DNA of 24,714 nucleotides from an uncultured virus (IMG/VR IMGVR_UViG_3300011339_000925) (lineage: Duplodnaviria; Heunggongvirae; Uroviricota; Caudoviricetes): IMG/VR virus record IMGVR_UViG_3300011339_000925; one strand, given 5' to 3'. Positions 483-15,700 of this stretch are shown here, piece after piece (position 1 is the first letter of the stretch; every line of letters starts with the position of its first letter). The notes under the pieces are model-generated. The model ran no database searches, was not told where the DNA came from, and saw only the letters and a program-made list of their open reading frames with translations. Both the position numbers and the translations under genes were made by a program.

Positions 483-3400
483 TTAATCTAGTTCAGTAAA
501 TTTTGTTAATGTTTTTTTCACACCAGAATAGAACGGAATTAATGGTTCTATTTTAGCACCTATTTTTAATCTTTCTCTTTTAGTATCTTCATACAAATAT
601 GGATTTCCTATTGCTGTTTCACCTGCAGCTTTTATTAATTCTAATCCTTGTTTAATAGTAGATATAGAAGCCATAGGAGATGAACCTAATAAATCAATAG
701 TTGATTCAGGATTTACAAAGTAAGTTAAATCTCGATTAAACCTCCATGCAGAGTTAATAATAAAATCTGAACCTATTATATCATCCCATTCATCTTCATC
801 ATCATCATATCCTGCTAATGCTTTTGCTAAAAAGTAAGTTAGTGTTAATGATGCAATTATTTTAAATTCTCTTAATGTTTTTCTAACATTCTCTTCATCT
901 AATCCTTCTATATTAAATTCTTTTAATTTATCAGGATTAAAATGTGCTGTCCATAGTATTTGCAATCCTTTTTTAATTGAACTAGAATTTAAACTACCAT
1001 CAGACATAAATACACTACGAAAATATCCTTTATTAACTCCTAACTCTGATGTGTATTCTTTTGAAAATCTTCTTGTAATACCTTCAAATAACCATGATGC
1101 TTTAAATTGACCTAATAATCTACCATAAAAATTTTTATTTAAAGCTATTGGATCTCTTTTATTATCTCTAGCTAATAAAGTTCTAGATAAAGCATGTATT
1201 TCATTTATTACTTTATTACGAAATTCAGAACCAATTTCAAAAGATTCAGTAAAATCACCATCTAAATATGCTGCTCCATTTTCATCAAATTTAATTGCAT
1301 CAAGTAAAGAATAAAGATTACCAGAAGAATCTGGTATTTTAATAGCATTTAATCTTGCAAATAATAAAGAACCTTTTGATATTTTTTCAGATTGCTTAAA
1401 AAACCAAAAAGCTGTATCAGTCCATTTTCCTTTAGGAGTATCATAACCAAAATTACTTAACAATGGAAAATTATTATACCATTTTTCTAATTCGTCAGGA
1501 TTTTTTAATAACTGATATGTTTTTAAAAACCCTAATTTTAAATCACTATCTGTAAAAAATTTACCACCTGCAGCTTCTACATACATAGAAGAAAAAGATT
1601 GAAATAATTCTGCTACTCCTGAAAAAAAATTAAACCCTAATGATTTAATTGCTGTGTAGTTTATTAAATTATTAGTTAATTTTTTACCAGTAACTACTCT
1701 ACCAGAATCATTTCTTTGTTTTTCTATTGCTTTAAATTCTTCTTCTGTAATTAAGTTTTTTTCTAAATTTTCTTTTGCTTGTTGATAATTTTTTTCTAAT
1801 TCAGGGTCATATAACATTTTTGAAAAAACACCATCTTTATCCTGTCTTTTATCATACATGTGTGCTTCAACAAAATACTTTAATTGTTCAAAAGAATTAT
1901 TTTGTAAAGGAGTTGCTAATTGAGGTTTACCATCTTTAAACTGTATGTTTCCATTAACTACTCTATACTCAGGTTGAGCTTTTACAACATTCATTAATAT
2001 TTTTATATCATCTTCTATTTTTTCTTTTTCTGCTTTATTAATAGAAGCTGTTATAAATTCTTGAAGTATTTTAGGTAAATCATAAGATTTATTTTTAGCA
2101 GATAGTTTTTTATTTAACATATTACCATCTGGTATAGACATCATACTTTCACCTGTTGTAGGGTCTTCAAAATATTCTCTTTTATCTTCAGGTATTTCAG
2201 CTAATAAGTAATATGGAAGATTAGACATTTTTGTTAAAAACGCTACATTTTCTGGTAATTCAGGAATATAAGTTAATGATACACTATGTTTAGTAGAAGG
2301 GTCTTCTAACCTAGCTTTTTTAATTGTATTAGTATAAAAATTATAAAATATTTTTCTAGGATCATTATCATTCATAGCTTGTAGTTCTGTAAACTTACTG
2401 TCTAAGTAAATAGGATTTGTTACATTAAATTTAACATAGCTTTTTGTATATGCTAAAAATCTTTTTGCCCATTCTATTTCATCACTACTTCTTTTAGATT
2501 TAGTAAGTATATTTAAAAAAGTTACAGGATTAGAACTCATTAACATATAATTTATCTTATCGTTAATAATATCTTCTAAATTTCTAGTACCTTCTACAAT
2601 ATTACTTTTTCTTATATTTTTTTCACCTTCAGCTAAATATTGGTTATATGCTTCTTCATCAATTTGAATATTGTGATTATTTCTTAAAAAATTTAAATAA
2701 GTTTCTATTTGTCTATTAGTTACTTTTTCATTATTAAAATTAGGTATAACTTTATACTTATCTGTTATATATTTATGATTAAATTCACTAATAGTATATC
2801 CTGTTAGTTCTCCATTTTCATCTGTTTGCAGCATATAATTAAAAAACTCTTTTGGATTTTTTATATCACCTAGTAATTTTAAAATATTTTTTAACGATGC
2901 AATAAATAAATTTTGTTTTACTTCTATTGTATTTACAATATTTACAATTTTTTGATGTGCGTATCTAATTAAAGGGTTATTAGATGTAGCAGCTGATAGT
3001 ACTTTAGATGTCCATTTATCTTCTTGTCTATATCCACCAATAGGTGCTTTAACTTCATTAGATACTTTTTTTTCAGATGCTTTAGTTATAGCAGTTTCTA
3101 AATCAGATAATTTTTGATTAAACAATTTTATTTGATTTAATAAATCTTCTTCATATCCTTCAGTAGGAAACAAATCTAAATAAGTATTTAAATATTGAGA
3201 AGCTAATACAATATGACCATTTGATAAATAAGCAAATGCTTCATCTATATGTTCAAACGCTTGTTGCAATAAAAAAGGAATAATTTGATTTTCTTCGTAC
3301 TTTAAATCTTTAATTCTTTTTTCTAAAGCTTTTATTCTTTTTCTTAAAATAAATTTATACTCTTCATTTTTTTCTTTAAAATATTGTTTTTTAACAGCTT

Positions 3401-5537
3401 CTAAGTTAGATGTTAACTTATTTAAAGCTCTTTCATAAGGAGTTAATTTTATATCGATAGATAATTCTGAAGTAGTAGGTTGTATATCATAAATATACAT
3501 ACTGGTTTTTCCATCTAAAAAGAGTTTAATGTGATCGTATTTTACATTTTCATCTTGTATAAATTGATTTATAAACTCTTCTTTAGTTATATTATTTTCT
3601 TTTAAATAATCCTCTATATTATATAGTCCATAATTTTTAATATTGTAAACCTGATTACCTATATTATAAGTACCTGATTTTAAATTAACTGGTCGTACAA
3701 TTACAGATTTAATACCTTTATTAATCTTGTCAGCACTTTCTTCTTGAAAAGGAAAATCAAAATCTAATGAATACTCTACATCAGGTGTAGTTGTTTCTTC
3801 AACAATAGGATTATTTTCTACAAACTTTTTAAATCCTTCTATATCTTGTTTAGATGAAAGTATATGAATTTGTTCTGGTTCAAATACTATATAGTCTTTA
3901 TAAAAATCATAATCTGCAACAATAGAATCAATATTTTTATCGGTATACCCTTTAGCTTTTTCGTAAGTTATATCTGATAATACTCTTGCTCTATCGTTAC
4001 TTATATTTTTAAAACTTAATATTTCTCTACTGTCTATTAGAGCATTTACTTTATTTTTACCATAATCTTTTATACGATTTAAATCATTTGTAAAAAAGTA
4101 AGCATTAGCAGTATTAGAAATTTCTCTTTCTAGTACTTTTTTAATATTTTTAGAAAACTTATCAAATTCACCATCAGTACCATGATAAACAATATCTTTT
4201 ACTTTACTATCAGGAAATATAGTAGATAAATATCTTTCATATTGTTCTTGTGTACCTATAGATGCAAGTTGTGGATTTTCTGCAAATAATTCACTAATAC
4301 CTTGTCTTGGAGTTACTGATTGTTTATTTTGTACGTAACTTTTAAATCCTTGTATATCTTGTTTAGAACCTAATATATGAATTTGTTCTGGTTTACCAAC
4401 AGCATAAAGAGATAGTTGACCATCATCATTATGTGTAAGCATTGTATCAAATTCTCCTTTTTCATTTATGTTTCGTATTGAAGTGTTTAGTTCTTTTATT
4501 TTATTCTTTAAAAAATCTTCTTCAACATTCTCCCAACCAGAATTTGATTTTTTAAAATCTTCTTTTTCTTCTTTACTTTTAAAGAATTTAATTTCATCTG
4601 TAACATCTATAAGTTGTAAAGCTAAAGCATTTTCAAAATCACCTTTTTGTAATAAAGAATTAATATTAAGTAATTCTTTATTCAAAGACTCTTTAGAATC
4701 TACATAATAACCAAAATGAGCAAATGGTTGAACTTGAATATTTTTTGAATCTACAAGTAATGCTAGAGTATTTCCATATCCTTCAGCTATATTTTTATCT
4801 TTTGCAAAGTAAAACCCTTTTTGAAATTTAGATTTAGAAACATCAACTGTATCAAACTTTTCATTACTACCATGATAAACAATATCTTTTACTTTACTAT
4901 CAGGAAATATAGTATCAAGATATTGAGAGTATAGTTGTAAAGCTTGTTGTTTTTGTTGTGGGGTTATTTGACTATTCCAATTATACTTATTAATAAGATA
5001 ATCTAAAGCTGTAGCATGGGATGATTCCCCAAGTTCCTTATAATAAACAATAGATTTTTCTTTTAATTTGCCAGATTGTAATACTTCTCTAATAAATTTA
5101 TGTTGTTCAGGTTTAATAGTTGTAATAGGAGATAAAATCCATTCTATATATTTTTCTACGCTTTCTTTAGTAGATTTAGTTCTTATTAAACCTTTTTGTA
5201 TTTCAGATTCTACAGAACTGAATGGGTTTCCAAAATGGTTATTAGTATTATTAACTCTCAAACTAAAAATACCACCAATAGATTTAGCATACTGTATTCC
5301 TGCTATTTGGTAAACAGGTTGAATTACTATATTATCCTTTTTAGTTTTATTACCCAATTTAAGATAAATTTCAGATACTGTTTCTTGTTTATTACTAATC
5401 CCTAAAGCTTCATATACAGCATTAGCAAGAGTTTTATTCTCATTAAATAAGTTATTAATAGCAATTTGCTTATTGAGATATTGAATAAATTGTTCTTCTG
5501 GTATTGATTGCCCTTTATATTTTATTATACAACCCAT
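483..5537 (-). CDS. 1684-aa polyvalent virion cargo/ejection protein: Cys head, DUF4326-like, 2x ART-PolyVal-like, ASCH-like, helical C-terminal ejection-protein domain
   Basis: Long ORF with motifs HFGNPF...SHA, two VYHG[ST]...PEQI units and GIKSVIVR. The C-terminal GRLLGQFKASW...RRF...GYFRS and hydrophobic IIASLTLTYFLAKALAG followed by an acidic run resemble the last large cargo protein of crAss-like phages. Confidence 0.85.
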   Translation of the reverse strand: MGCIIKYKGQSIPEEQFIQYLNKQIAINNLFNENKTLANAVYEALGISNKQETVSEIYLKLGNKTKKDNIVIQPVYQIAGIQYAKSIGGIFSLRVNNTNNHFGNPFSSVESEIQKGLIRTKSTKESVEKYIEWILSPITTIKPEQHKFIREVLQSGKLKEKSIVYYKELGESSHATALDYLINKYNWNSQITPQQKQQALQLYSQYLDTIFPDSKVKDIVYHGSNEKFDTVDVSKSKFQKGFYFAKDKNIAEGYGNTLALLVDSKNIQVQPFAHFGYYVDSKESLNKELLNINSLLQKGDFENALALQLIDVTDEIKFFKSKEEKEDFKKSNSGWENVEEDFLKNKIKELNTSIRNINEKGEFDTMLTHNDDGQLSLYAVGKPEQIHILGSKQDIQGFKSYVQNKQSVTPRQGISELFAENPQLASIGTQEQYERYLSTIFPDSKVKDIVYHGTDGEFDKFSKNIKKVLEREISNTANAYFFTNDLNRIKDYGKNKVNALIDSREILSFKNISNDRARVLSDITYEKAKGYTDKNIDSIVADYDFYKDYIVFEPEQIHILSSKQDIEGFKKFVENNPIVEETTTPDVEYSLDFDFPFQEESADKINKGIKSVIVRPVNLKSGTYNIGNQVYNIKNYGLYNIEDYLKENNITKEEFINQFIQDENVKYDHIKLFLDGKTSMYIYDIQPTTSELSIDIKLTPYERALNKLTSNLEAVKKQYFKEKNEEYKFILRKRIKALEKRIKDLKYEENQIIPFLLQQAFEHIDEAFAYLSNGHIVLASQYLNTYLDLFPTEGYEEDLLNQIKLFNQKLSDLETAITKASEKKVSNEVKAPIGGYRQEDKWTSKVLSAATSNNPLIRYAHQKIVNIVNTIEVKQNLFIASLKNILKLLGDIKNPKEFFNYMLQTDENGELTGYTISEFNHKYITDKYKVIPNFNNEKVTNRQIETYLNFLRNNHNIQIDEEAYNQYLAEGEKNIRKSNIVEGTRNLEDIINDKINYMLMSSNPVTFLNILTKSKRSSDEIEWAKRFLAYTKSYVKFNVTNPIYLDSKFTELQAMNDNDPRKIFYNFYTNTIKKARLEDPSTKHSVSLTYIPELPENVAFLTKMSNLPYYLLAEIPEDKREYFEDPTTGESMMSIPDGNMLNKKLSAKNKSYDLPKILQEFITASINKAEKEKIEDDIKILMNVVKAQPEYRVVNGNIQFKDGKPQLATPLQNNSFEQLKYFVEAHMYDKRQDKDGVFSKMLYDPELEKNYQQAKENLEKNLITEEEFKAIEKQRNDSGRVVTGKKLTNNLINYTAIKSLGFNFFSGVAELFQSFSSMYVEAAGGKFFTDSDLKLGFLKTYQLLKNPDELEKWYNNFPLLSNFGYDTPKGKWTDTAFWFFKQSEKISKGSLLFARLNAIKIPDSSGNLYSLLDAIKFDENGAAYLDGDFTESFEIGSEFRNKVINEIHALSRTLLARDNKRDPIALNKNFYGRLLGQFKASWLFEGITRRFSKEYTSELGVNKGYFRSVFMSDGSLNSSSIKKGLQILWTAHFNPDKLKEFNIEGLDEENVRKTLREFKIIASLTLTYFLAKALAGYDDDEDEWDDIIGSDFIINSAWRFNRDLTYFVNPESTIDLLGSSPMASISTIKQGLELIKAAGETAIGNPYLYEDTKRERLKIGAKIEPLIPFYSGVKKTLTKFTELD
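3477..3760 (-). other. ASCH/PUA-like domain within the 1684-aa protein
   Basis: KINKGIKSVIVR (GIKSVIVR at 3693-3716) fits the ASCH I-x-x-G-x-K-x-x-[ETS]-x-R signature with Ile at the E/T/S position. About 95 aa, bounded by EYSLD and ELSID. Confidence 0.5.
3827..4224 (-). other. ADP-ribosyltransferase-fold (ART-PolyVal-like) cassette 2
   Basis: IVYHGT...AYFFTND...DYG...IDSI...DYIVFEPEQI matches the motif order of H-Y-x ART domains in phage polyvalent proteins. Confidence 0.7.
3827..4393. repeat. Direct repeat pair closing both ART cassettes (3827-3880 and 4340-4393)
   Basis: 48 of 54 nt identical, encoding PEQIHIL[GS]SKQDI[QE]GFK. Offset 513 nt, in frame. Confidence 0.95.
4178..4914. repeat. 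Perfect 47-bp direct repeat opening both ART cassettes (4178-4224 and 4868-4914)
   Basis: taccatgataaacaatatcttttactttactatcaggaaatatagta occurs twice and encodes TIFPDSKVKDIVYHG. Offset 690 nt, in frame. Confidence 0.97.
4340..4914 (-). other. ADP-ribosyltransferase-fold (ART-PolyVal-like) cassette 1
   Basis: IVYHGS...GFYFAKD...AEGYG...EFDTM...LYAVGKPEQI, with a long helical insert. Confidence 0.7.
4976..5330 (-). other. DUF4326-like domain within the 1684-aa protein
   Basis: R...HFGNPF (5220-5237)...KESVEKYIEWI...LKEKSIVYY...SHATAL follows the DUF4326 pattern (R..WGNPF..v..Y..W..L.GK.L.C.C.P..CH..L) but lacks the cysteines. Confidence 0.6.
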
Positions 5538-6258
5538 AGTTTGTTCATTTTAATTAATTCTATTGTACTTACAGAAACACCATATTTAGAAGCTATTTCT
5601 TTCATTTTCATTTTACCAAATAAAATTCTAATTTCATTAGCTTTTTCTTGGTTAAGTTTAGCCCTCGGATGATTCTCACCTTTAAACTTTTCAGATATTT
5701 TCTGTTTAGTTTCTTCTGAAAGATTTTTTCCTAAATGAGATTTTCTAATACTTTCTTTATGTTCATCAGATAGCTTTCTACCCACTCTTTTAGGATTATT
5801 AGTATTACTTTCAGAAATCTTTTGTTTATGTTCTTCTGTTAATACCATTCCTAAATTACTATTTACTTTTTTTCTTTTGTTAAAAGTAGGTTTTAAAATA
5901 TCTATGAAAAATTGTTCAAGTTTTAATAAATATTCTTTAGGACAATTAACTAAAATTTCAAACTGAAAATTATCAATACCATATTTATTACAAGATGCTT
6001 GCAGATGTTTATTAGGATGTTTTGACAGATTCATATTAGCAAAATGAGTTCTTTTTCTGCTATTTAGGTTTACAGCAGAACCAATATAACTATCTTGAGT
6101 TATTATATTTGTTATTTTATATATACCGCTTATGAACATTGTTTTTCTATTAAGTTGTCTTTCAATAGCAAAGATAATAAATTTTCAGCAGAAATACCAG
6201 AATTAGTTAATATTTTTGAATATACAGCATTAGCTAATTCAGGATTATTATTAAATAA
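5412..6258 (-). mobile_element. Putative homing-endonuclease insertion block bounded by direct repeats (5412-5450 and 6220-6258)
   Basis: Identical 15-mer atatacagcattagc at 5412-5426 and 6220-6234, plus attaaataa at 5442-5450 and 6250-6258. Both copies encode LFNxNxxLANAVY, are 808 bp apart and enclose the GIY-YIG gene. Confidence 0.55.
5525..6139 (-). CDS. GIY-YIG homing endonuclease with NUMOD3 repeats and C-terminal HTH
   Basis: SGIYKITN...YIGSA...R...H...LEQFFID...FN catalytic pattern, three [LT]xEEHKQKIS-type NUMOD3 repeats, GENHP, and HTH-like KEIASKYGVSVSTIELIK. Overlaps both neighbours (10 and 13 nt). Confidence 0.95.
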   Translation of the reverse strand: MFISGIYKITNIITQDSYIGSAVNLNSRKRTHFANMNLSKHPNKHLQASCNKYGIDNFQFEILVNCPKEYLLKLEQFFIDILKPTFNKRKKVNSNLGMVLTEEHKQKISESNTNNPKRVGRKLSDEHKESIRKSHLGKNLSEETKQKISEKFKGENHPRAKLNQEKANEIRILFGKMKMKEIASKYGVSVSTIELIKMNKLWVV

Positions 6259-6738
6259 TTCTTCTACACCTGGTTTAATAAGTGTTTCAGGACTTATTGA
6301 ATACTCTAAATCTTTTTGTTCTTGTTCTCTTAAAACTTCATCATCCAAATAAAAATCATTATTTTCATACCATTCTTTTATTTTATTTTCTTCTTCTTTT
6401 TTTAGTTTAGCTATATATTCTTCTTTTGCTTTTTTTTCTTGTTCTTTTGTTAAAAGAGGTTTAGCAACTGTTACAGGATTTTTATTTTCTAATTCCCAAG
6501 TATATAAATCAGCTTGTCCTACTTTAGTAAAATTTATAAAATAACTTGTATTATTTTCTTTATTGTACTCACCAATTTTTTTCTTAATATTAATTTGTTG
6601 TGCAAATGAAACTTCTTTACGATAGTTTTTTAAAACTTGCTTAAGTTTAATATATTTTTTTAAACCTTCTTCAGCTCCATATTTAAAAGCTAAGTCATTT
6701 AATATTTTATTACTTGCACTGTTTAATAAACAATTCAT
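6130..6738 (-). CDS. 202-aa hypothetical virion cargo protein with Cys at both ends (C3, C201); putative adaptor or N-terminal half of a split gene
   Basis: ATGA overlap with the 4999-aa gene. Shares the ELFxxNPxLA / LANAVY linker and EYS[IL] motif with the 1684-aa protein. Confidence 0.8.
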   Translation of the reverse strand: MNCLLNSASNKILNDLAFKYGAEEGLKKYIKLKQVLKNYRKEVSFAQQINIKKKIGEYNKENNTSYFINFTKVGQADLYTWELENKNPVTVAKPLLTKEQEKKAKEEYIAKLKKEEENKIKEWYENNDFYLDDEVLREQEQKDLEYSISPETLIKPGVEELFNNNPELANAVYSKILTNSGISAENLLSLLLKDNLIEKQCS

Positions 6739-9700
6739 TTACATTCTGTTTTAAATTCCTCTTTTTCTTTTAATTCTCTAAATATTTCTCTTTCTTCTTT
6801 AGTTAGATTTTGCATAAAGTCTCTAACACTAGTTTTAAATTCAAAGATACTAGGATCTATTGACTTTTCTGTAACATTTTGAGTAGGATTATAAATTACT
6901 AATTTTTTTCTAGGTCTAGAGACAGCAGTATACATCATTCTATTTACTTGTTCTTTACCTCCTGGAAAAGTCATAATATCATTTTCTAAAACATAAACTG
7001 AATTATAAGTACTTCCTTGAACTTTATGAGAAGTTATAGCATAATTATATCCTATATCTACAATTTTTCCTTTTAATGTATAAAACTCAGACCAAGCAGC
7101 TTTATATTCATTAGTACCTTTAGAAAAAGATTTAGCTTTAACAGCCATTTTACTAAGTACATTTTTAAACAAATCTTTTTCTTCAGGACTTATTGTAGTT
7201 ATTTTTTTAACACCAGTTTTTTTAACATTATTTTCATTTAAATATTCGTATTCAATAGTAAGATTATAAGTAGTAAAATTAACATCTGGAACTACAACAG
7301 GAGTAATTTCTTTAACTTTACCTTTAAATCCATTAGGTAATTCTACCGTACCATTTATTACATACGGACTATTAACTCTAATAAAATCACCTACTACAAA
7401 AGGTTCAGTAGTATTAAATAGTTTTTGTCTAACTAGACTATTAAAATTATCAACAACAGTATTTCTAGCTCCTATAATAATTGCTTGTTTAGGATTATTG
7501 TTATTTGTAATTTCAAAAACATAATCATCTACTAATTTTTTAGAATCTGTTTCATAAAGAACACCACCATCACTAGTAAAATTGTTTCTTCTTTCTTTTA
7601 AAGGATTATCTACACTAGGTTTATTATTTTGGATATTTTCTACATTATTTGCATATATATCTGTAATAGGTAATATAGGACTTTCTGCACCTTGACGCAT
7701 TCTTTCGTTTAGTTCAGCAAAATTTTTATTTTTATCAAGACTCCATATAGGAGAATCTTTACTTTGTCCAGATTCATTTATAGGAGGAATTTGAACATTA
7801 TCCCCCATAAATATAACTTTTGCACTTTTTAATTTTTTATTAAGTATTTTATTGTATAAAAAATCATTTATCATTGAAGCTTCATCAATAATAATATATT
7901 CTGCATTTTCAATAGGATCGCTTTTACCCATTCCTCTAAACTTAGCTTCTTCTTCTTGATTCCTTTCTCTAAAGAATATTTTACCAGTTTTACTATCATA
8001 GTCTGGTACTAACCCTAGCAGTCCTGCTACAGTAGTAGTTTTATATCCAGACATATTTTCTTGAAGAACTTGTCTAGCTTCATCTGAAACAGTTGCTCCT
8101 ATTATACTTGTTTTAGGTAACTTTCCAAGAGCTTTTTTAATAATAGTTGTTTTACCTGTACCTCCTCTACCTTTTAATAAAAATTTATCATCATTACTAT
8201 TTAAAAACTCTTCTATTTTATCAATAGCTTCTTTTTGTCCTTCGTTAGCATATACTCCTGGAAATAACTCATATTTTTTATTTGGTATTTCTAACGTAGT
8301 AGATGTAGTAGAAGTATTTTTTTCTTTTATTTCAACATCTTTTGATACTAAAGAATCGTATTTACTTTGAATATTTTTAGGATTCATAAATTTAAACTCT
8401 CCACCTTTTTGTCTGTATTCAGCACTTATAGGTTTACCATTTTCTAAAGTAAACTTATACTCTGTTCCAAATTCAAAAAAAGATTTAGTTTCTATTGATT
8501 TTTCTGTACTTTCACTACCTGTTTCTGTATTAATTAATCCTGTAACATCGGATTCATCTGCTGTTATTAATTTACCAGTATTAGTTTTAAATTCTATTTG
8601 ATATACTGCAGGAGCAATAATTTTTTCTTCTTTAGTAATATCATTTATAGATATTGTTGGTCCTAAAACCATTTGTACTTTTCCAGTAACTATTGCATCA
8701 AAAGAATTTTTATACTTATAGTATTTAATTTTTACTGTTCTTCCTTTATTTAATTTAGCTAATTTTTCAACATCTGTAATTACTTTTGTAGATGTTTCAG
8801 TTACAATATTAGAAACACCTGATTCTGTAGATTTAAATGTATTAGCATATACATCTCTTATAGCTTGTTTACCTGCTTCTGTTGTATTAGAAGAAGTACC
8901 TATTCCTGCAAAGTTTTTAGTTAATGTAGGAGTATCTATAGATACAAAATCTTGTTTTGTACTATCCCATTTATACCAACCTTGAGAATAAACATTATTA
9001 GCAACTTGATTAAATACATAAGTTGGTTTACCCATTGTAATACCTAATTGTACAGCTACACTAGTACCTCCATTTACTTGTGGTACTAAAGCTTTTTTTG
9101 TTGCTTGTCCTCTAGCTACTGTAATATCTGCACCTTTTGGTATAAGAGAACCAATAGCAAAAATACCATCTGCATTTTTAACTTGAGCATAGTTTCTAAT
9201 TTTTTTTGTATTTCTTGTTGTATGATTAAGTTCTATTCTACCCATAGCTCTTTCAGCATTAGTTACTGCAATTTGAGCTTCTCCTGTTGCAGGTCCTTGT
9301 AAAGCTACAGGTCCTACGTCATTTGTAGCATCAACAGGTTTTACTCCTTTAGCTTGTAATCTAGGATCAGATACAGCACCATCTGATGGTAATAAATAAT
9401 GTTTATTATTTACCATACCAAATTCAGCACCTATTAAATCCCATTCAGCATCATAACCTTTAGCACCACCAGAATGATTAGTATATTCTGCTGGGTTATT
9501 TACAGTAGTAGTTATTACATCAGAAACACCTGGTTCATTGTAATCAGCTATCTGCATAATAGCATCTACAGCTTCATCTAACAATGAACCTTTTTCTATA
9601 TTTAAAGCTTTTTTAATTAATTCTAATAAGTCATTAATTATTTTTTTAATACTCATCCCTTCAGAAGCTAATCTTCTTTGTACTATTTCTGAAGTTAATG

Positions 9701-12700
9701 TTTCTGTTACAAACTCTAATATACTATCAGCTGCATAATATATATTGTAATTATCTTTTATATCTTTAGGTAAACTACTTATTTTTTCTGCACGATATTT
9801 TTTAAATATTTCTAAATTAGCTTTTTCTTTTTCAGTAAAAGAATTTAAATATTTATCATAAACTTTTTTTAATTTTTCGTATTCAGGTGTTTTTTGAAAT
9901 TCAGGATCTTTTAATTTACTAGCAGTAACACCGTGTACTAATTCATGTAGTACATGAGATAATAATAAATCTTTATTATCCTTATATTTTCTTTCTAATC
10001 TAGTTAAATCATATTTTATAGTTTTTGTTAAACTATTATGTTCACCAAATGCTTTATCAAGAGCACCATATTCTATAGTATAATCATTTAATTTATCTTT
10101 TAAATATGTTGCTAACGCAGTATAATACTCATTAGAATTAAGCAATACACCTTCTAATAATTCATTAACTGTAGTTATTGGTTTTCCTTGACTATCTTTA
10201 AATGTAGCTTCTATTATATCTAAACTATTTTGAGGAGCACTACTAGATTTTATAGATTGAGTAAGGGTAGAAACTTGTACAGGAACTTTATTATTAGGTA
10301 TGATGCTCCTTTTATTTTTTTCTTCAAATTTATATTCTACAATAGACGCACTTTCTAATCCTAATCTATCAATAATTTTATAATGTAATTTATTATTCTT
10401 AGTATTTTCTAATTGATACAAATCTGTTTCAGAAGTATTAAAATTATAAATCGCAACAAACCTTAAATAATTTTGAATATTGTTATTTAAATCTGTTTTA
10501 GATACAAATTTTTTAGCTATTTCAGAATCTGTATTAATAAATATTTCTGTTAATACGTTTGTATCAGTATTGGGTATAGCTACATATTTTTTTTCAACAT
10601 CTTTATTAGAAGCATTTTTTATTATACCTGTTATAGATTTAGCTAATTGAGGATTATGTTGAAAATACTGCTTTTCAAATTCTTTAAAATATGTTGGTGA
10701 TGATAAATTAGTTTCTATACTTTTTAATATACTTGATAAATTTATAGCTTGATAATATTCAAAAGGTATATATTTAAAAAAGTTAGAAACACCAAATAAA
10801 TTAGCATTAAAATATAAAGAATATGCAGCTAAGTCTAATCCAAATTGTCTTAACTCTAAATCTTTTTGATTAGTTTTCATTAAATCTAACCAAGCATTTG
10901 TAATTTGATTTTCTAAAACTTCTGTTTTAACAAAACTATTACCCATAGTTAAAAGATTATCTTGGTTAATAGTAATTCTTCTTAACAAATTATTATTAGG
11001 ATATTTTTCTTTTAATTCTGTAAACCTATTTTTTAAATTTATCCATAAATCTGCTTTGTATGCATTTATATCTTTACCATCAGCTATTCGTTCTTGTATA
11101 AGTGGGTGAGAGTACACATAACTAAATAATCCATTATAAATAGAATTAGTGTCATCATCAGTTAATGAATCTGTTTTACCTAATGTTTCTGCAATTAAAC
11201 TTTCTATTGTTGAATATGCAGTTTTACTATATTGATATATATTTGAATAAAGATTAACAGCAAACTTTGGTATTTTAATATATTCACCTACAACAGTATT
11301 TTTAAGTTTAGAAACATTACCTATAGCATCTTCTATTAATTTAGATTGTTTTACAACTAGCTGTATTGTTTCAATATAATTTTTAGGTAATCCTTTAGAG
11401 TCTATAATCATAGCTCCCTGAACTGAATTAATACTTGTAGTTAATTCTTCATAATGTTTAAATGCTAATAAAATTGCTACTTGTTTTTCTTTTTGTTTAT
11501 CACTTAATTCTTCAAAAGATTTATTTAACATAGATTTATATTCTTCTAATGTAAATCCATCTTTACGAAGGTCTAATAATTTTTTTGAATCTTTATTAAC
11601 ATACTTTAAAAGTAGTTCCATTGTTTTCTTTTCTTTTTTATCATAATCATATTCAGTATCAAACATAGATTTTAACTTATCTAGTTCTTTGTAATACTCT
11701 TTAAGAATAGGTTGATTAATAAAATTTATTACCCAATTATGATTAAAACCAGTTTGAATAATTGTTAATCCTACTCCAAGGTTATAATTATTAATACCTC
11801 CTAATCCTAACAATTTTTCTTTAGCATTATCCACAGAAGCTGCTAACCACTCAGATATTCTTTCTGATATTACTCCACCATCAAATCCAAAAATCTTATC
11901 TAATCTCCATGCAGAAGTAGATGTAGATTGATTTTCTGAATAAAGGTCGTTAGTGTATTCATTAATTCTATTTTCTTTAACATTTTCAGTATAATAATTA
12001 CCTTTTTCATCTTTAAACATTACTCCTGTTCCTTTAATAAATAGATTAGCTTCTTGAGCCATTGCATGAAACGTATTAGCATTTGCTCCTACACCAACAC
12101 CTGTTTTACCTGCTTTATTATCAAAAAATGTATCTCTTTGATAATTAGGGTCATAAAATCCTAACCATTCTTTATTAAGTGAGTTTCCATATTTAGAATT
12201 AAATTCTGTAATTGTATTTTGTAAAGAATCAAAACCTTGAGGAGTTACAACACTATTAAAAATATCCGCACTTAATAATACTTCTTGATATATATCAACT
12301 ATTTTATTAACATCAGAATCACGTTTAACTAAAAATCTTTTTCTACTTTTTCTTAATTCTTTAATTAATTCTTCTCTATCAGCTATTTGTTTTTGTATTT
12401 TTTGATCTGCTACCATATTTAATAAAAATATTTCATTTATTAAAGTATTTAAATCGTCAGATAATTCTATTGCTCTTTCTTCATTAGGTGGATTAATTTC
12501 ATCATTTAATTCATTATAAATATCTTGAACATTATTTTGAAGTTTAGCAATAATAGGTTTATTATAAGGATTGCTTAATGCTAATTTTTGACTTAAATTT
12601 TCTGATACTAAAGCTATTTCTTCTGCACTAGGTGGTTCTATTACAACACTTGCTTCATAATTGTACATAAACAATTTATCTACGTCATAGTCACTACCCA

Positions 12701-15700
12701 TTTGAATAGCAAGTTCAGAAGGAACTATAATAGTATCTCCCATAGATTCAGGTAAAAACCCTGCTACTTCAAAAACCATCATTGATTTTCTACCTTCTGT
12801 TGGAATACGAAAACCAATTGATGTTAGTAATTCTTTAGGTAGTTTTTCTAAATCTATGTACCCATCTTTAATAAAATCTGTTATTTTTAATTTTTTACCT
12901 TTATGTGTAAAGTAAAAAGGAACATATACTTGAGCTCTTTCAGAAAAATCTTTTCCTTTTCCTTTTTTAATGTAATTTAATTTACCTTTTTTATTTTCAG
13001 CAGAAGTATATATAATACTATTTCTTTCTTCTTCAGTTAATGCTTCTTCACTTTTTATATTATTATTTTTACCAAAAGATTTATAAGTAAGAACTTCAGA
13101 AACCTGTACATAAGATTTACCACTTATTTTAGTACGCATTACAGAATTAGTAATAAGTGCTTGTAATACTGGTTGTATTTTACCTATGTTAGGATTAAAT
13201 ATTAATGGAAATAAGAAATTACCTTTTCCATCAGTTTTTAACATTTTTTTAGCGTTTTCAGTAAAATCTCTTCTTGCAGATTCATTTTCTAAAACTTGTG
13301 CTAATTTTTCTACATTTTTAATTACATAATTACCTTCAGCATCAGGAAACATATCAGTTTTTTCTAATAATTCTGATATTAATTTAGCTTTAGATTTTTC
13401 AACTAATCTTTTTTGAGCTTCTATGTAATCTTGTTTAACTTCTGCTACTGTTCTACCACTAGATAGTACGGTGTTATTAGCTAAATTAACAAATAACAAC
13501 TTCATAGCTTGTGTTACTTGACGAATAGTATTTTTACTTTCATCATAAGGAATGTTTAATTGAATGTGATAACCACTTCTTTCTAAAGTTATAGGAGATA
13601 AAAATGCTTCATCATTAACATTACCATTATTATCAAACAAAGTAGTTACTTGTTTATTACCTATTTTAACAGCAGATGGAAAAGTTAATCTATCTATATT
13701 TTGAGCTATCATATTTTCCCTTACTTTTTTCATTGGACCATCTTTAATTACAGCTGGTACTAAAGGAACAGATGATGTTTTAATATAAAACTCTTCTATT
13801 ATTCCATTTTCAAGATTAGAAAAAACTTGAACTGGTTTTCTAGGTTGTAATAATGCTTTAGAATCTAAATTTTTTATTTGTTCTTCTGTTAAATTTTCAA
13901 AAGGTAATACTCCTTCATCAGTTTCATTTTCTTTACCAAAATACAAATACAAATCAGAATTAGGATCATTATATAACATTTGATAATGCTCTGGGTCATA
14001 TAACATCATACCTCTTAAAACATCTGATGTACTAATTTCTCCATGTGCATATCTATCATTTAAATGTTCCCATACTGTTGTAAATTCTTGAGCATCAGTT
14101 AATTTTTCATTTTTTAAATCTTTGTAAAACTTTTGAATTTCTTTTTCATATTGTTCAATATTAGAAGCATCTACATTCATGTCATTGACTATAGCAACTT
14201 TATAAGTAGATTTTTTCCAAAATCCTCTTCTACCTTGAGCTAATAATCTAGCATTTCTTTTACTTAAATTATCAAATGTTGATAAAATTCCTTGAAGTAC
14301 TTGATCTTTAGTTAAAAGTTTATCTGTAGATGGTATTTTAGATTGTTGTGCAGGGTCACCTAGTATTAAATTTGTTTCAATTAATACTGTCATATTTTTG
14401 TATACAAAATCTATTACTGCGTGTTTAGTACGAGCATCTAAATCAGTACCATATTTTTTAATTAAATTTTCTTTATACGCTTCATCCATAATGTTTGTAT
14501 AATAAGTACCATCTTTCTTTTTACTTATAATACCAAAATCTTCCCAAGAATTTAATGTTTTTAAAACTATAGAGTTAAATCTTTGAAGTATTTTTTTCTG
14601 AATTAAATTTTTAACATCATCATTTAAAGTTAATGTAGATTTTAATCTGTAAAGATTATTCTTTTTGTCGTACAATGCTTTTAAAATTTTAACAGAATCT
14701 TCATCAGTATTTTCTGCTAATATTTCTGCATTTAAAAACTCATAATAATAAAAGTATTCTCCTGCACCTTTTTTAGTTTCAGTAGAATCTGCATTTTTTA
14801 ATTTTAATTTTTCTGATATTTTTTGTCTAATTTGATATTGTTGAATTTTAGCTACTTCCATATTGAAGTAGTTATAAAGATTCTTCTTTATAACATTAGA
14901 CATTCCCCATTTCTTTTCAGTTTCATTATACAATAAAATGTTTTCTAAATTAGGAGTAATGTTCTCAAACATTAAATTGGTAGATTTATCTGATAAAGTT
15001 TCAGCTTTTATAAGTCCTATATTCTCACCATTTTTATTTATTATTTGAGAATTTAACATTCTCATTATTTCAAATTCTATAGGATTAGAATCTTTAAAAA
15101 ACTTAGGAGCTTCATTTTTAAATCTAAACCCTCTATCTACAATTACTTTAATATTTTGCAGCTGAGCTCTTAAATTTTTATATACTAAAGTATTTTTTAA
15201 ATCAGACCATTTTGATTTAAACCAATTTAATTTTTCAGTTATAGGTTTAGAATTAGTAAATGAACTATATTGTACACCTGATACTCTATAAGTACCTGCT
15301 ATAGCTCTAGAACTTGTTAAAAGAATTGCTTTAGAAATATTTTGAAATATAGTACCTTCATTTATAAAAAGGTCTTGCAAGGTACTAGATGTCAAAAATC
15401 CTTTTTTAAGTAATAAATCTAAAAATACTTCTTTAAGAAATTTATTGTCATTTCTAGTAGCTGATGTAAATCCTTCTCTTTTTTGTAAATATTGAGTAAG
15501 ACCTATTTTATTTATATTCATACCAAGAGCATTAAAAATACTTTGTAGCTCTGATAATCCTTCATTAGTAATTATATTTTTTTCAAAATAAGAAGTATTA
15601 GCTAAAAGATTTTCAACACTTTTAATTATACTTTGAATATAAGATTTATTAATAACATTATTTTCTTGATTATTAATTAATTGTCTAGTAGATAATCTAG

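What the first reader, a model, noticed from the sequence alone, without database searches (positions are those of the whole stretch)
5412..6258. Homing endonuclease block that appears to split a cargo gene and supply its own re-joining tags
Seen: direct repeats encoding LFNxNxxLANAVY (identical 15-mer plus 9-mer) lie 808 bp apart. Removing the block fuses aa 1-173 of the 202-aa protein in frame to aa 43-1684 of the next, giving an 1815-aa protein reading ...KPGVEELFNNNPELANAVY-EALG.... The block holds a 29-aa tail ending QCS*, the GIY-YIG gene, and a new head starting MGC. The nuclease ATG overlaps the Gln-Cys codons and its last codons overlap M-G-C, with no non-coding DNA. Known: endonucleases usually stay harmless via introns or inteins, or fracture genes whose halves reassemble (split inteins, Aeh1 nrdA/mobE). 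Inference: a further strategy in which the invader carries a Cys-tail/Cys-head docking pair that re-links the halves after translation.
Basis: partly seen in the sequence, partly recalled or inferred. Interest (0 to 1): 0.85.

Follow-up and report, generated by a model that had tools for sequence, protein, structure and literature searches.

The report
Nuclease cassette splits giant phage gene
A selfish nuclease gene has cut one giant phage protein gene in two and brought along a short conserved end-piece for each half, each carrying one of the only cysteines in these huge proteins, which may let the halves find each other again.

Summary
An ~810-850 bp block (window 5396-6258, minus strand) holds a 29-aa tail ending QCS*, a GIY-YIG/NUMOD3/HTH homing endonuclease and a 29-aa head starting MGC. 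It is flanked by two copies of LFNxNxxLANAVY, and all three ORFs overlap.

Two nuclease-free relatives (P0078, P0079) carry the 202-aa and 1684-aa proteins as one gene reading ...KPGIQELFDSNQSLANAVYESLGF... at the junction, so the cassette split a gene.

The block is a discrete mobile unit. A 26.9-kb contig from another metagenome holds 5396-6247 at 96% identity and differs on both flanks. The head starts 83 of 106 library proteins with unrelated cargo and is never internal. Tail and head are under purifying selection (dN/dS 0.27, 0.18; nuclease 0.21).

New here: the three giant polyvalent proteins have 4 cysteines in 6,885 residues (1.4% in the rest of the phage). All 4 lie within 3 residues of the termini that face a neighbouring gene. 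A 155-kb phage repeats the pattern, including at nuclease-free junctions.

Whether the cysteine tags re-link the halves is inferred only. Close precedents exist: the Aeh1 NrdA/MobE tails and the T4 MobA CTE/NTE element. Verdict: a new variant of a known kind.

The parts
6735..21734 (-). 4999-aa polyvalent protein, first member of the chain. It has a C-terminal SF1 helicase module and a single cysteine at residue 4998 (...FKTECK*).
   Evidence: ORF. Pfam AAA_30, PIF1 and UvrD_C_2. Cysteine census.
6735..6738 (-). Nuclease-free junction. An ATGA stop/start overlap joins the 4999-aa gene (...ECK*) to the 202-aa gene (MNC...).
6130..6738 (-). 202-aa protein: the N-terminal fragment of the split gene plus the cassette-derived tail. 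Its cysteines are only at residues 3 and 201.
   Evidence: Residues 1-190 align to residues 1-181 of the uninterrupted P0078.
6220..6258 (-). Motif copy 1, LFNNNPELANAVY. It keeps the native left context ...KPGVEE.
   Evidence: The native uninterrupted motif is seen in P0002, P0078 and L007.
6133..6219 (-). Tail, a 29-aa C-terminal extension: SKILTNSGISAENLLSLLLKDNLIEKQCS.
   Evidence: Absent from the uninterrupted homologues. Conserved in 5 other cassette loci, in 26 of 29 longer hit proteins and in about 29 of 37 small proteins. dN/dS 0.27.
5525..6139 (-). Free-standing GIY-YIG homing endonuclease of 204 aa, with NUMOD3 and HTH DNA-binding parts.
   Evidence: dN/dS 0.21 among 5 copies.
5451..5537 (-). 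Head, a 29-aa N-terminal extension: MGCIIKYKGQSIPEEQFIQYLNKQIAINN. From about residue 14 onward it resembles the native linker that precedes the motif.
   Evidence: dN/dS 0.18.
5412..5450 (-). Motif copy 2, LFNENKTLANAVY. This is the cassette-side duplicate of the target and runs on into the native ...EALG.
   Evidence: It is variable between copies, with dN/dS 1.37 measured over a 17-aa stretch LFN..EALG. It is comparable to the 'HomR' region of the MobA element.
5396..6247 (.). Extent of the mobile unit as delimited by an independent copy: 852 nt, 32 differences, no gaps, with unlike sequence on both sides.
   Evidence: run X10, a 26,883-nt contig (tables 7 and 8).
483..5537 (-). 1684-aa protein: head plus the C-terminal fragment of the split gene. 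It carries ART-PolyVal and a single cysteine at residue 3.
   Evidence: Residues 433-1684 align to residues 349-1613 of P0078 at 58% identity.

Best explanation
An ~810-850 bp homing-endonuclease cassette has inserted into a conserved linker motif (...KPGVEELFxxNPELANxVY|EALGF...) of a giant phage polyvalent-protein gene.

The cassette consists of four parts:
- a 29-aa C-terminal extension ending in Cys-Ser-stop;
- a free-standing GIY-YIG/NUMOD3/HTH nuclease gene;
- a 29-aa N-terminal extension starting Met-Gly-Cys;
- a second, variant copy of the 13-aa target motif.

Shown:
- The insertion turned one gene into two (202 aa and 1684 aa).
- The three ORFs overlap by 10 and 13 nt.
- The same cassette sits in many unrelated cargo genes.
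- Its tail and head are under purifying selection.
- Nuclease-free relatives have the uninterrupted gene.

Inferred:
- The nuclease cuts cassette-free alleles at or near the DNA that encodes the motif.
- Repair from a cassette-bearing genome during co-infection copies the unit in, with the two motif copies serving as homology.
- The overlapping ORFs are probably translationally coupled.
- Tail and head act as portable assembly tags that keep the two halves together, as shown for the insertion-derived tails of Aeh1 NrdA.

Most speculative step (about 1 in 3): the single cysteine near each facing terminus forms a link, most simply a disulfide once the virion is in an oxidising medium. Separately translated pieces (4999 aa ~ 202 aa ~ 1684 aa) would then behave as one linear chain for packaging and ejection, and fall apart in the reducing host cytoplasm.
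For: Split gene:
- P0078 and P0079 are uninterrupted. Their residues 1-181 and 1-160 align to the 202-aa protein at 47-49% identity. Their residues 349-1613 and 345-1486 align to the 1684-aa protein at 58-67%.
- Their junctions read ...PIKPGIQELFDSNQSLANAVYESLGF... and ...PIKPGVEELFESNPELANIGT... Each has one cysteine, at residue 3.

Mobility:
- Tail, nuclease and head stand in that order, adjacent, in 5 of 6 loci with this nuclease, beside unrelated cargo: the window, L001, L008, L009 and L010. In L005 the tail is internal and a further domain precedes the nuclease.
- Run X10 holds window 5396-6247 at 96% identity in a 26.9-kb contig that differs on both sides.
- All 71 of 71 word-index hits to the head carry it at residue 1, followed by diverse cargo.
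- In the exhaustive profile search, 83 of 106 hits start at residue 1. The other 23 match only from profile position 14 onward, which is the native linker.
- The tail ends 26 of 29 longer proteins and about 29 of 37 small ones.

Selection (pooled pairs of 6 copies):
- dN/dS is 0.27 for the tail, 0.18 for the head and 0.21 for the nuclease.

Cysteines:
- The three window proteins have 4 Cys in 6,885 residues, against 138 in 9,870 residues in the rest of the phage (binomial P about 3e-36). They sit at residues 4998 of 4999, 3 and 201 of 202, and 3 of 1684.
- In the complete 155-kb phage G001 the chain is 1311 aa (Cys 1310), nuclease, 691 aa (Cys 3, 690), nuclease, 3908 aa (Cys 3, 2176, 3908), then 2170 aa (Cys 4).
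- In the 71 head-bearing proteins, 145 Cys occur in 38,269 residues and only 30 are internal.
- The head cysteine does not depend on overlap with the nuclease. It persists where the nuclease ends before the cysteine codon (L002 2489, L001 9602).
- The tail cysteine persists where the ORF runs on into another domain.
- Six nuclease-free junctions also show the Cys/Cys pattern.

Precedent:
- PMC3045599 and bioRxiv 10.1101/2022.08.31.505936.
Against: - No direct evidence that tail and head bind, or that the cysteines bond. The complex predictor was unavailable.
- The two AlphaFold2 monomer models were of low confidence (pLDDT 52 and 56).
- The 1-2-1 count of cysteines along a chain would also arise if every junction were a scar of a cassette that happens to carry cysteines.
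- In nuclease-bearing junctions the tail Cys codon overlaps the nuclease ATG (xxA-TGY). That register allows only Cys or Trp, so part of the tail cysteine's conservation could be a coding by-product.
- Polyvalent proteins are thought to be cut into separate units anyway (PMC5512222, passages). A cut at a linker might therefore need no re-joining.
- dN/dS rests on 6 non-independent copies, and the ends of tail and head overlap the nuclease ORF.
- Nuclease activity and its target site are untested.
- That these proteins are packaged and ejected rests on the family's literature and on gene order. It was not tested here, and PHROGs and Pfam gave nothing for the neighbouring 671-aa gene.
Confidence: 0.72

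Rival explanations
1. Neutral fragmentation. The cassette splits the gene, but tail and head have no re-joining role. Polyvalent proteins are strings of independent modules that tolerate a cut at a linker. The extensions only supply a stop, a start and translational coupling. Their conservation and their cysteines reflect recent spread and overlap with the nuclease ORF.
For: - The tail Cys codon overlaps the nuclease ATG in the window and in at least two other nuclease families.
- Cassette copies are close to each other: 96% identity in X10 and 70-90% amino-acid identity among heads.
- Polyvalent proteins are proposed to be processed into separate units (PMC5512222).
- No binding evidence was obtained.
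Against: - dS among copies is substantial (0.28-0.31) while dN is 4-6 times lower.
- Tail and head are 29 aa each, far more than a stop and a start need.
- The head cysteine is invariant in 71 of 71 heads. It is also present in divergent head families that do not overlap a nuclease.
- The tail cysteine is kept where the ORF continues into a cap domain.
- Cysteine is purged everywhere else in these proteins.
Confidence: 0.22
2. Protein splicing. Tail plus head form a split intein that ligates the halves and removes itself, as in the 'fractured genes' with a free-standing nuclease between intein halves.
For: - The gene order (half, nuclease, half) matches fractured genes (PMC2677866; search listing and abstract start only).
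- Cysteines lie at both junction termini.
- The head begins with Cys followed by a predicted beta-hairpin.
Against: - No Hint or intein family matches the head, the tail or P0016 even at E up to 10. The PDB profile search found none either.
- 29 + 29 aa is far below the size I recall for a Hint fold (about 130 aa; recalled).
- The order is inverted. The Cys-first hairpin sits on the downstream protein after Met-Gly, not at the start of the upstream extension.
- The residue before the head cysteine is G, S, A, T, P or K in most heads, not Asn.
- The residue after the duplicated motif is not a conserved nucleophile.
Confidence: 0.03
3. RNA-level or ribosome-level repair. The block is removed as a group I intron, or ribosomes hop from the tail Cys codon to the head Cys codon, as in T4 gene 60.
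For: - Matching Cys codons flank every junction, and a stop follows the first within 0-2 codons. This recalls take-off and landing codons (for the gene 60 model).
- At short junctions the gap is only 8-15 nt.
Against: - Rfam finds no intron or other RNA family in 5200-6900 at E up to 1.
- Tail and head evolve as protein, with low dN/dS.
- A 607-nt hop has no precedent.
- Gaps between the two Cys codons vary (8, 11, 15, about 36 and about 75 nt, and 600-800 nt with a nuclease), with no common sequence.
- The head cysteine sits at residue 3, 4 or 5 behind a proper ATG.
Confidence: 0.02
4. Plain intergenic insertion. The 202-aa and 1684-aa genes were always separate, and the nuclease sits between them as free-standing nucleases usually do.
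For: Natural nuclease-free junctions with similar Cys termini exist in these arrays: the window's 4999/202 junction, two in L009, and G001's 3908/2170 junction.
Against: - P0078 and P0079 are fused across this exact point, with the uninterrupted motif and no cysteine there.
- The motif is duplicated around the block.
Confidence: 0.02

Closest known systems
T4-type MobA mobile element, which splits topoisomerase gene 39/60 (bioRxiv 10.1101/2022.08.31.505936; passages read)
   Same: - A homing endonuclease inserted inside an ORF.
- It adds a conserved C-terminal extension to the upstream half and a conserved N-terminal extension to the downstream half.
- The N-terminal extension overlaps the nuclease ORF out of frame.
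- It carries a variant copy of the target region ('HomR').
- The extensions are retained even after the nuclease is lost.
   Different: - MobA is an HNH enzyme, is found only in one gene at one site, and comes with a 50-nt ribosomal bypass.
- Here the nuclease is GIY-YIG and there is no bypass.
- The target is a generic linker motif, so one cassette sits in dozens of unrelated cargo genes.
- Each extension carries one of the protein's only cysteines.
Aeh1 nrdA split by mobE, with insertion-derived tails (PMC3045599; abstract and passages read)
   Same: - A free-standing endonuclease fragments a gene.
[quoted passage not shown]
- The authors predicted that such tails would be general.
   Different: - This is a single event. 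The tails had no database matches and were proposed to act by opposite charge.
- No cysteine role was proposed, and the tails are not a reusable cassette.
- Function was shown biochemically there. Here it is only inferred.
Fractured genes with split inteins and a free-standing nuclease (PMC2677866; search listing and abstract start; details recalled)
   Same: The gene order (N-half, nuclease, C-half) is the same, and so is the idea that the invader brings its own repair device.
   Different: Those use true split inteins and a Vsr-like nuclease. Here there is no Hint homology, the size is wrong, and the junction residues do not fit.
Polyvalent proteins of phages and conjugative elements (PMC5512222; passages read)
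   Same: The host genes are giant multi-domain proteins with ART-PolyVal, helicase and kinase-like modules, encoded among late genes. They are thought to be delivered with the DNA and processed into units.
   Different: A term search of that paper found no occurrence of cysteine, intein, homing endonuclease, GIY-YIG or linker. The terminal-cysteine rule and the fragmentation by nucleases are not described there.

Membership tests
Free-standing GIY-YIG homing endonuclease | GIY-YIG catalytic domain plus a DNA-binding module | tested here: met
   Pfam GIY-YIG 31.0 bits (cut-off 22.6) and NUMOD3 47.3 bits (cut-off 20.4). HTH_7 is weak. PHROG 314, E = 1.3e-29. 30-36% identity to annotated phage homing endonucleases.
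Free-standing GIY-YIG homing endonuclease | Present or absent at the same site in related genomes, and present in unrelated contexts | tested here: met
   Absent from P0078 and P0079. Present with different flanks in L001, L008, L009, L010 and the X10 contig.
Free-standing GIY-YIG homing endonuclease | Not embedded in an intron or intein | tested here: met
   No Rfam match. No Hint or intein match.
Free-standing GIY-YIG homing endonuclease | Cleaves the cassette-free allele and spares its own | not testable with these tools
   Needs enzyme and substrate DNA.
Endonuclease-derived assembly tails (Aeh1 NrdA/MobE; MobA CTE/NTE) | The extensions arrive with the insertion and are absent from uninterrupted homologues | tested here: met
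Endonuclease-derived assembly tails (Aeh1 NrdA/MobE; MobA CTE/NTE) | The element carries a variant copy of the target region | tested here: met
   Motif copy 2 at 5412-5450.
Endonuclease-derived assembly tails (Aeh1 NrdA/MobE; MobA CTE/NTE) | The extensions are retained under selection | tested here: met
   dN/dS 0.27 and 0.18, from 6 copies only.
Endonuclease-derived assembly tails (Aeh1 NrdA/MobE; MobA CTE/NTE) | The extensions are required for assembly or function of the split protein | not testable with these tools
The monomer models are of low confidence.
Split intein (fractured gene) | Hint-fold sequence blocks in the two extensions | tested here: not met
   No Hint or intein family at E up to 10 for head, tail or P0016. 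PDB profile search: none.
Split intein (fractured gene) | Nucleophile at the first residue of the upstream extension, and Asn followed by Cys/Ser/Thr at the end of the downstream one | tested here: not met
   The head ends ...INN and is followed by Leu. The residues around the duplicated motif are not conserved nucleophiles.
Group I intron with nuclease ORF | Ribozyme core detectable | tested here: not met
   Rfam, permissive search of 5200-6900: only two chance-level hits to unrelated families.
Polyvalent protein (Iyer et al. 2017) | Many unrelated effector domains in one polypeptide, including family-specific domains | tested here: met
   ART-PolyVal, E = 1.7e-11, in the 1684-aa protein. An SF1 helicase module in the 4999-aa protein. 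Head-bearing relatives carry ART-PolyVal, kinase-like and HATPase domains.
Polyvalent protein (Iyer et al. 2017) | Packaged in the virion and delivered to the host | not testable with these tools
   Only the gene order, next to late genes on the same strand.

The most novel reading that the evidence does not exclude
Giant phage polyvalent proteins of this group follow a 'cysteines only at facing termini' rule because separately translated pieces are strung head-to-tail through the terminal thiols. The simplest form of this link is an inter-chain disulfide made in the virion. The pieces would then form one linear, threadable chain that is packaged and ejected as a unit, and released as modules when reduced in the host. 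Homing-endonuclease cassettes exploit this by carrying a ready-made junction (Cys tail, nuclease, Cys head and a copy of a generic linker motif). With it they can break any such gene harmlessly, and in doing so they drive module shuffling.
Probability: 0.3. Interest if true: 0.85.

Novelty: new variant of a known kind. Interest (0 to 1): 0.68.

Why it matters
First, this would be a portable version of the 'molecular antidote' idea. A selfish nuclease carries standard end-tags and a copy of a generic linker, so one cassette can invade many different genes. The 83 head-bearing cluster representatives carry diverse cargo.

Second, recombination breakpoints fall on the same linker motifs. P0175 is 98% identical to P0078 up to KPGVEE and then differs. 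A cargo module bounded by two motifs occurs at about 99% identity in other metagenomes. This points to nuclease-driven shuffling as a source of the diversity of polyvalent anti-defence proteins.

Third, the near-total absence of cysteine from about 7,000-8,000 residues, except within a few residues of the termini that face a neighbour, is a sharp and testable signature. It bears on how virion-delivered proteins are assembled and ejected.

I found no description of this signature in three places:
- a term search of the polyvalent-protein paper;
- a search on split genes and homing endonucleases;
- three further full-text searches on phage ejection proteins, cysteines and split genes.

Tried and rejected
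- Annotated phage collection: no DNA or protein match to the region or to the 202-aa protein.
- Earlier findings of this scan: nothing for this genome or for the head sequence.
- AlphaFold2 of P0016, which has head and a tail in one 129-aa chain: pLDDT 52. AlphaFold2 of P0006, which has head plus cap: pLDDT 56. Both are too weak to use. Only the secondary structure is noted: a head hairpin then a helix, and a tail helix then a strand.
- ESM Atlas for the cap domain: no usable feature hit, and the structural neighbours are under the bar.
- Looking for DNA of the uninterrupted allele with P0079 in viral contigs and genome contigs: no confirmed locus. The empty site could therefore be compared only at protein level.
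- Split intein, group I intron and ribosomal hop: considered and rejected.
- Pfam's weak Intein_splicing hit inside the 1684-aa protein (residues 729-953, 20.8 bits against a cut-off of 35.8): treated as noise, because it lies far from the junction.
- Sequencing runs: no RNA holder is listed.
- Laid contigs showed several short joints, including one (X9, 5417 to 6229 with 3 letters between) that has the length expected of an empty site. Their sides are under about 30 nt, and the motif is widespread, so I do not count them as evidence.
- Pfam and PHROGs on neighbouring genes (671 aa, 155 aa, 112 aa): nothing usable.

Full report
**Setting**

The window lies in a 55,886-bp phage contig of 25.7% GC. 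On the minus strand four ORFs follow each other without gaps:
- a 4999-aa protein (6735-21734);
- a 202-aa protein (6130-6738);
- a 204-aa protein (5525-6139);
- a 1684-aa protein (483-5537).

Pfam finds an SF1-helicase module at the end of the 4999-aa protein and ART-PolyVal in the 1684-aa protein. It finds GIY-YIG, NUMOD3 and a weak HTH in the 204-aa protein. PHROGs calls the 204-aa protein a homing endonuclease. The large proteins are therefore 'polyvalent proteins' in the sense of PMC5512222. That paper places such proteins among late genes and argues that they are delivered with the DNA (passages).

**The observation**

- The exact 15-mer lies at 5412 and 6220, 808 nt apart. It is preceded on the coding strand by an identical 9-mer.
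- The two copies encode LFNNNPELANAVY and LFNENKTLANAVY.
- The nuclease ATG sits inside the Gln-Cys codons of the 202-aa ORF.
- The last 13 nt of the nuclease overlap Met-Gly-Cys-Ile of the 1684-aa ORF.
- Deleting 808 nt joins residue 173 to residue 43 in frame.

**Is it a split gene?**

Yes. A search for longer relatives of the 202-aa protein returned P0078 (1613 aa, from a 55,909-bp contig) and P0079 (1488 aa).
- P0078 residues 1-181 align to residues 1-190 of the 202-aa protein at 47% identity. Its residues 349-1613 align to residues 433-1684 of the 1684-aa protein at 58%.
- P0079 behaves the same way, at 49% and 67%.
- Their junctions read ...PIKPGIQELFDSNQSLANAVYESLGF... and ...PIKPGVEELFESNPELANIGT... 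This is the single, uninterrupted motif, with no tail, no head and no cysteine.
- The same uninterrupted motif occurs inside other long proteins. It accounts for the 23 internal matches of the exhaustive search, which read ...TIEGFKQWNNKQQQINELFESNPELANEVYEALGF....

**Is the block a mobile unit?**

Yes, on four lines of evidence.
- Adjacent tail, nuclease and head occur in L001 (a complete 155-kb phage), L008, L009 and L010, beside cargo unrelated to the window's. In L005 the same nuclease and head follow a protein in which the tail is internal.
- Laying public contigs on 4900-6900 showed a 26,883-nt contig in run X10 that matches 5396-6247. The match is 852 nt with 32 differences and no gaps, and the contig differs on both sides. 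The unit therefore ends inside the two motif copies.
- All 71 of 71 hits to the first 60 residues of the 1684-aa protein carry the head at residue 1, followed by diverse cargo.
- A profile of seven heads, scored against 1.84 billion cluster representatives, gave 106 hits at E up to 0.001. Of these, 83 begin at residue 1. None has the MGCVIKYKGQSIP part inside a protein.

The tail SKILTNSG...LIEKQCS ends 26 of the 29 longer hits and about 29 of the 37 hits of similar length.

A second tail type...VYLQDFEQVEKILKEEKIIDKKCS, follows a different linker motif, ITPQQKQQA...L-D. Cassette-like tails are thus found at more than one motif.

**Are tail and head maintained?**

Among six cassette copies the pooled Nei-Gojobori values are as follows:

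| Region | dS | dN | dN/dS |
|---|---|---|---|
| Tail | 0.28 | 0.07 | 0.27 |
| Head | 0.31 | 0.05 | 0.18 |
| Nuclease (5 copies) | 0.47 | 0.10 | 0.21 |

The cassette-side motif copy is variable (dN/dS 1.37). The caveats are the small number of non-independent copies and the overlap of the ORF ends.

**The cysteine pattern**

This was not part of the finding.
- The 4999-aa protein has one cysteine, at residue 4998. The 202-aa protein has two, at residues 3 and 201. The 1684-aa protein has one, at residue 3.
- That is 4 in 6,885 residues, against 138 in 9,870 in the other ORFs of the phage (binomial P about 3e-36).
- In the 155-kb phage G001 the array reads 1311 aa (Cys 1310), nuclease, 691 aa (Cys 3, 690), nuclease, 3908 aa (Cys 3, 2176, 3908 = last residue), then 2170 aa (Cys 4). 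Neighbouring genes there have ordinary cysteine content.
- Three protein sets from the searches show the same pattern:

| Set | Residues | Cys | Position |
|---|---|---|---|
| 71 head-bearing proteins | 38,269 | 145 | 30 internal |
| 35 proteins (29 longer hits plus 6 cluster members) | 34,820 | 66 | 46 terminal |
| 37 hits of similar length | 7,246 | 69 | 59 terminal |

- Most of the remaining 'internal' cysteines are tail cysteines followed by a further ~42-230-aa C-terminal domain.
- The first protein of a chain lacks the N-terminal cysteine, and the last lacks the C-terminal one.
- Six junctions without a nuclease show the same Cys/Cys pattern: the window's 4999/202 junction, G001's 3908/2170 junction, two in L009, one in L002 and one in L005. 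The spacing between the genes ranges from a 4-nt overlap to 57 nt.

**What the cysteines do and do not prove**

Part of the tail cysteine could be a coding by-product. In nuclease-bearing junctions the nuclease ATG overlaps it as xxA-TGY, a register that permits only Cys or Trp. The 1-2-1 count along a chain would also follow if every junction were a cassette scar.

Against a pure by-product reading:
- The head cysteine is kept in head families whose nuclease ends before it.
- The tail cysteine is kept where the ORF continues.
- The cysteine is the one residue shared by otherwise dissimilar tails and heads.
- All other cysteines have been purged.

I therefore take the terminal cysteines to be functional. 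How they act remains an inference. The simplest reading is a link between facing termini, a disulfide in the oxidised virion, that keeps separately made pieces in one linear chain.

**Rejected mechanisms**

- Split intein: there is no Hint similarity, the extensions are too small, and the junction residues and their order do not fit.
- Group I intron: Rfam finds nothing, and the extensions evolve as protein.
- Ribosomal hop between the two Cys codons: the gaps are variable, reach 600-800 nt, and each head has its own ATG.
- Plain intergenic insertion: contradicted by the fused relatives.

**Comparison with what is known**

The architecture matches the T4-type MobA element. That element adds conserved C- and N-terminal extensions. 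Its N-terminal extension overlaps the nuclease ORF and holds a variant copy of the target. The extensions are always retained (bioRxiv 10.1101/2022.08.31.505936; passages).

The proposed function matches Aeh1 NrdA/MobE, where insertion-derived tails were shown to be essential for assembly. Its authors predicted the mechanism would be general (PMC3045599; abstract and passages).

What differs here:
- a GIY-YIG enzyme;
- a generic linker as target, so one cassette occupies many genes;
- a cysteine in each tag of otherwise cysteine-free proteins;
- the same tags at nuclease-free junctions.

A term search of the polyvalent-protein paper found no mention of cysteine, intein, homing endonuclease or GIY-YIG. 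Supplements of these papers were not read.

**Module shuffling**

P0175 is 98% identical to the uninterrupted P0078 over 152 residues. It diverges exactly at KPGVEE and ends in a Cys tail.

Contigs in runs X9 and X11 hold window 4941-5464 at about 99% identity. This is the cargo module between the LFNEN...EALG motif and the ITPQQKQQA...YSQYL motif.

The linker motifs thus behave as recombination joints.

**Verdict**

- The split-gene reading, and the reading that the tags come with the invader, are supported.
- Re-linking through the cysteines is plausible but untested.
- The idea has direct precedents, so this is a new variant of a known kind.
- The terminal-cysteine rule is an additional unexplained feature worth an experiment.

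Noticed in passing
L005:762-2399 (545 aa); L002:422-1840 (472 aa); P0006, P0023, P0034, P0043, P0065: The tail cysteine is sometimes followed, in the same ORF, by a conserved C-terminal 'cap' instead of a stop. The short form is about 60-70 aa (C-xGxGKLKAKxG...FTKGGKW...P[TS]HxxGGVD...AKYGLVIP). The long form is about 230 aa and has a CxxC. There is no Pfam match, and the Atlas neighbours are under the bar.
   Followed up: partly
P0007, P0015, P0016, P0027, P0035, P0053, P0055, P0062, P0068, P0071 (alignment A4): A second tail type, ...VYLQDFEQVEKILKEEKIIDKKCS*, follows a different linker motif (ITPQQKQQA..L-D, normally continued by TIFPDSKVKDIVYHG). This suggests a second cassette family aimed at another linker. 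The DNA was not seen.
   Followed up: partly
window 4941-5464: Contigs in runs X9 and X11 match this stretch with 3-4 differences and stop at both ends. The ends fall in the head/LFNEN motif and in the ITPQQKQQALQLYSQYL motif, as if the cargo module between two linkers moves as a unit.
   Followed up: partly
P0175 against P0078: The two are 98% identical over residues 1-152 and unrelated after KPGVEE. P0175 ends in a different Cys tail (...EQGNIEKKC*). This looks like a recombination breakpoint exactly at the linker motif.
   Followed up: yes
window 6728-6745 (4999/202 junction): The nuclease-free junction reads GAATGTAAATGAATTGT. An ATG overlaps the Cys codon and is followed at once by TAA. 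This could be the scar of a lost nuclease ORF or could be chance in AT-rich DNA.
   Followed up: no
L008:993-1478: A 161-aa ORF with no Cys tags sits between a Cys tail (...PPNCVL*) and a Cys head (MSC...). It looks like an inserted passenger gene at a junction.
   Followed up: no
L001:8815-9600; L002:1788-2492 and 3556-4200: Three further, mutually divergent GIY-YIG nucleases (261, 234 and 214 aa) occupy other junctions of the same arrays. Each lies between a Cys tail, or a cap domain, and an MxC head.
   Followed up: partly
window 2680-3352 (1684-aa protein, residues 729-953): Weak Pfam Intein_splicing hit (E = 3.6e-4, 20.8 bits against a cut-off of 35.8), far from the junction. Treated as noise.
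   Followed up: no
G000:C1:27624-29378 (outside the window): A 584-aa late protein has 23 cysteines (3.9%), in contrast to the cysteine-free giant proteins a few genes away.
   Followed up: no
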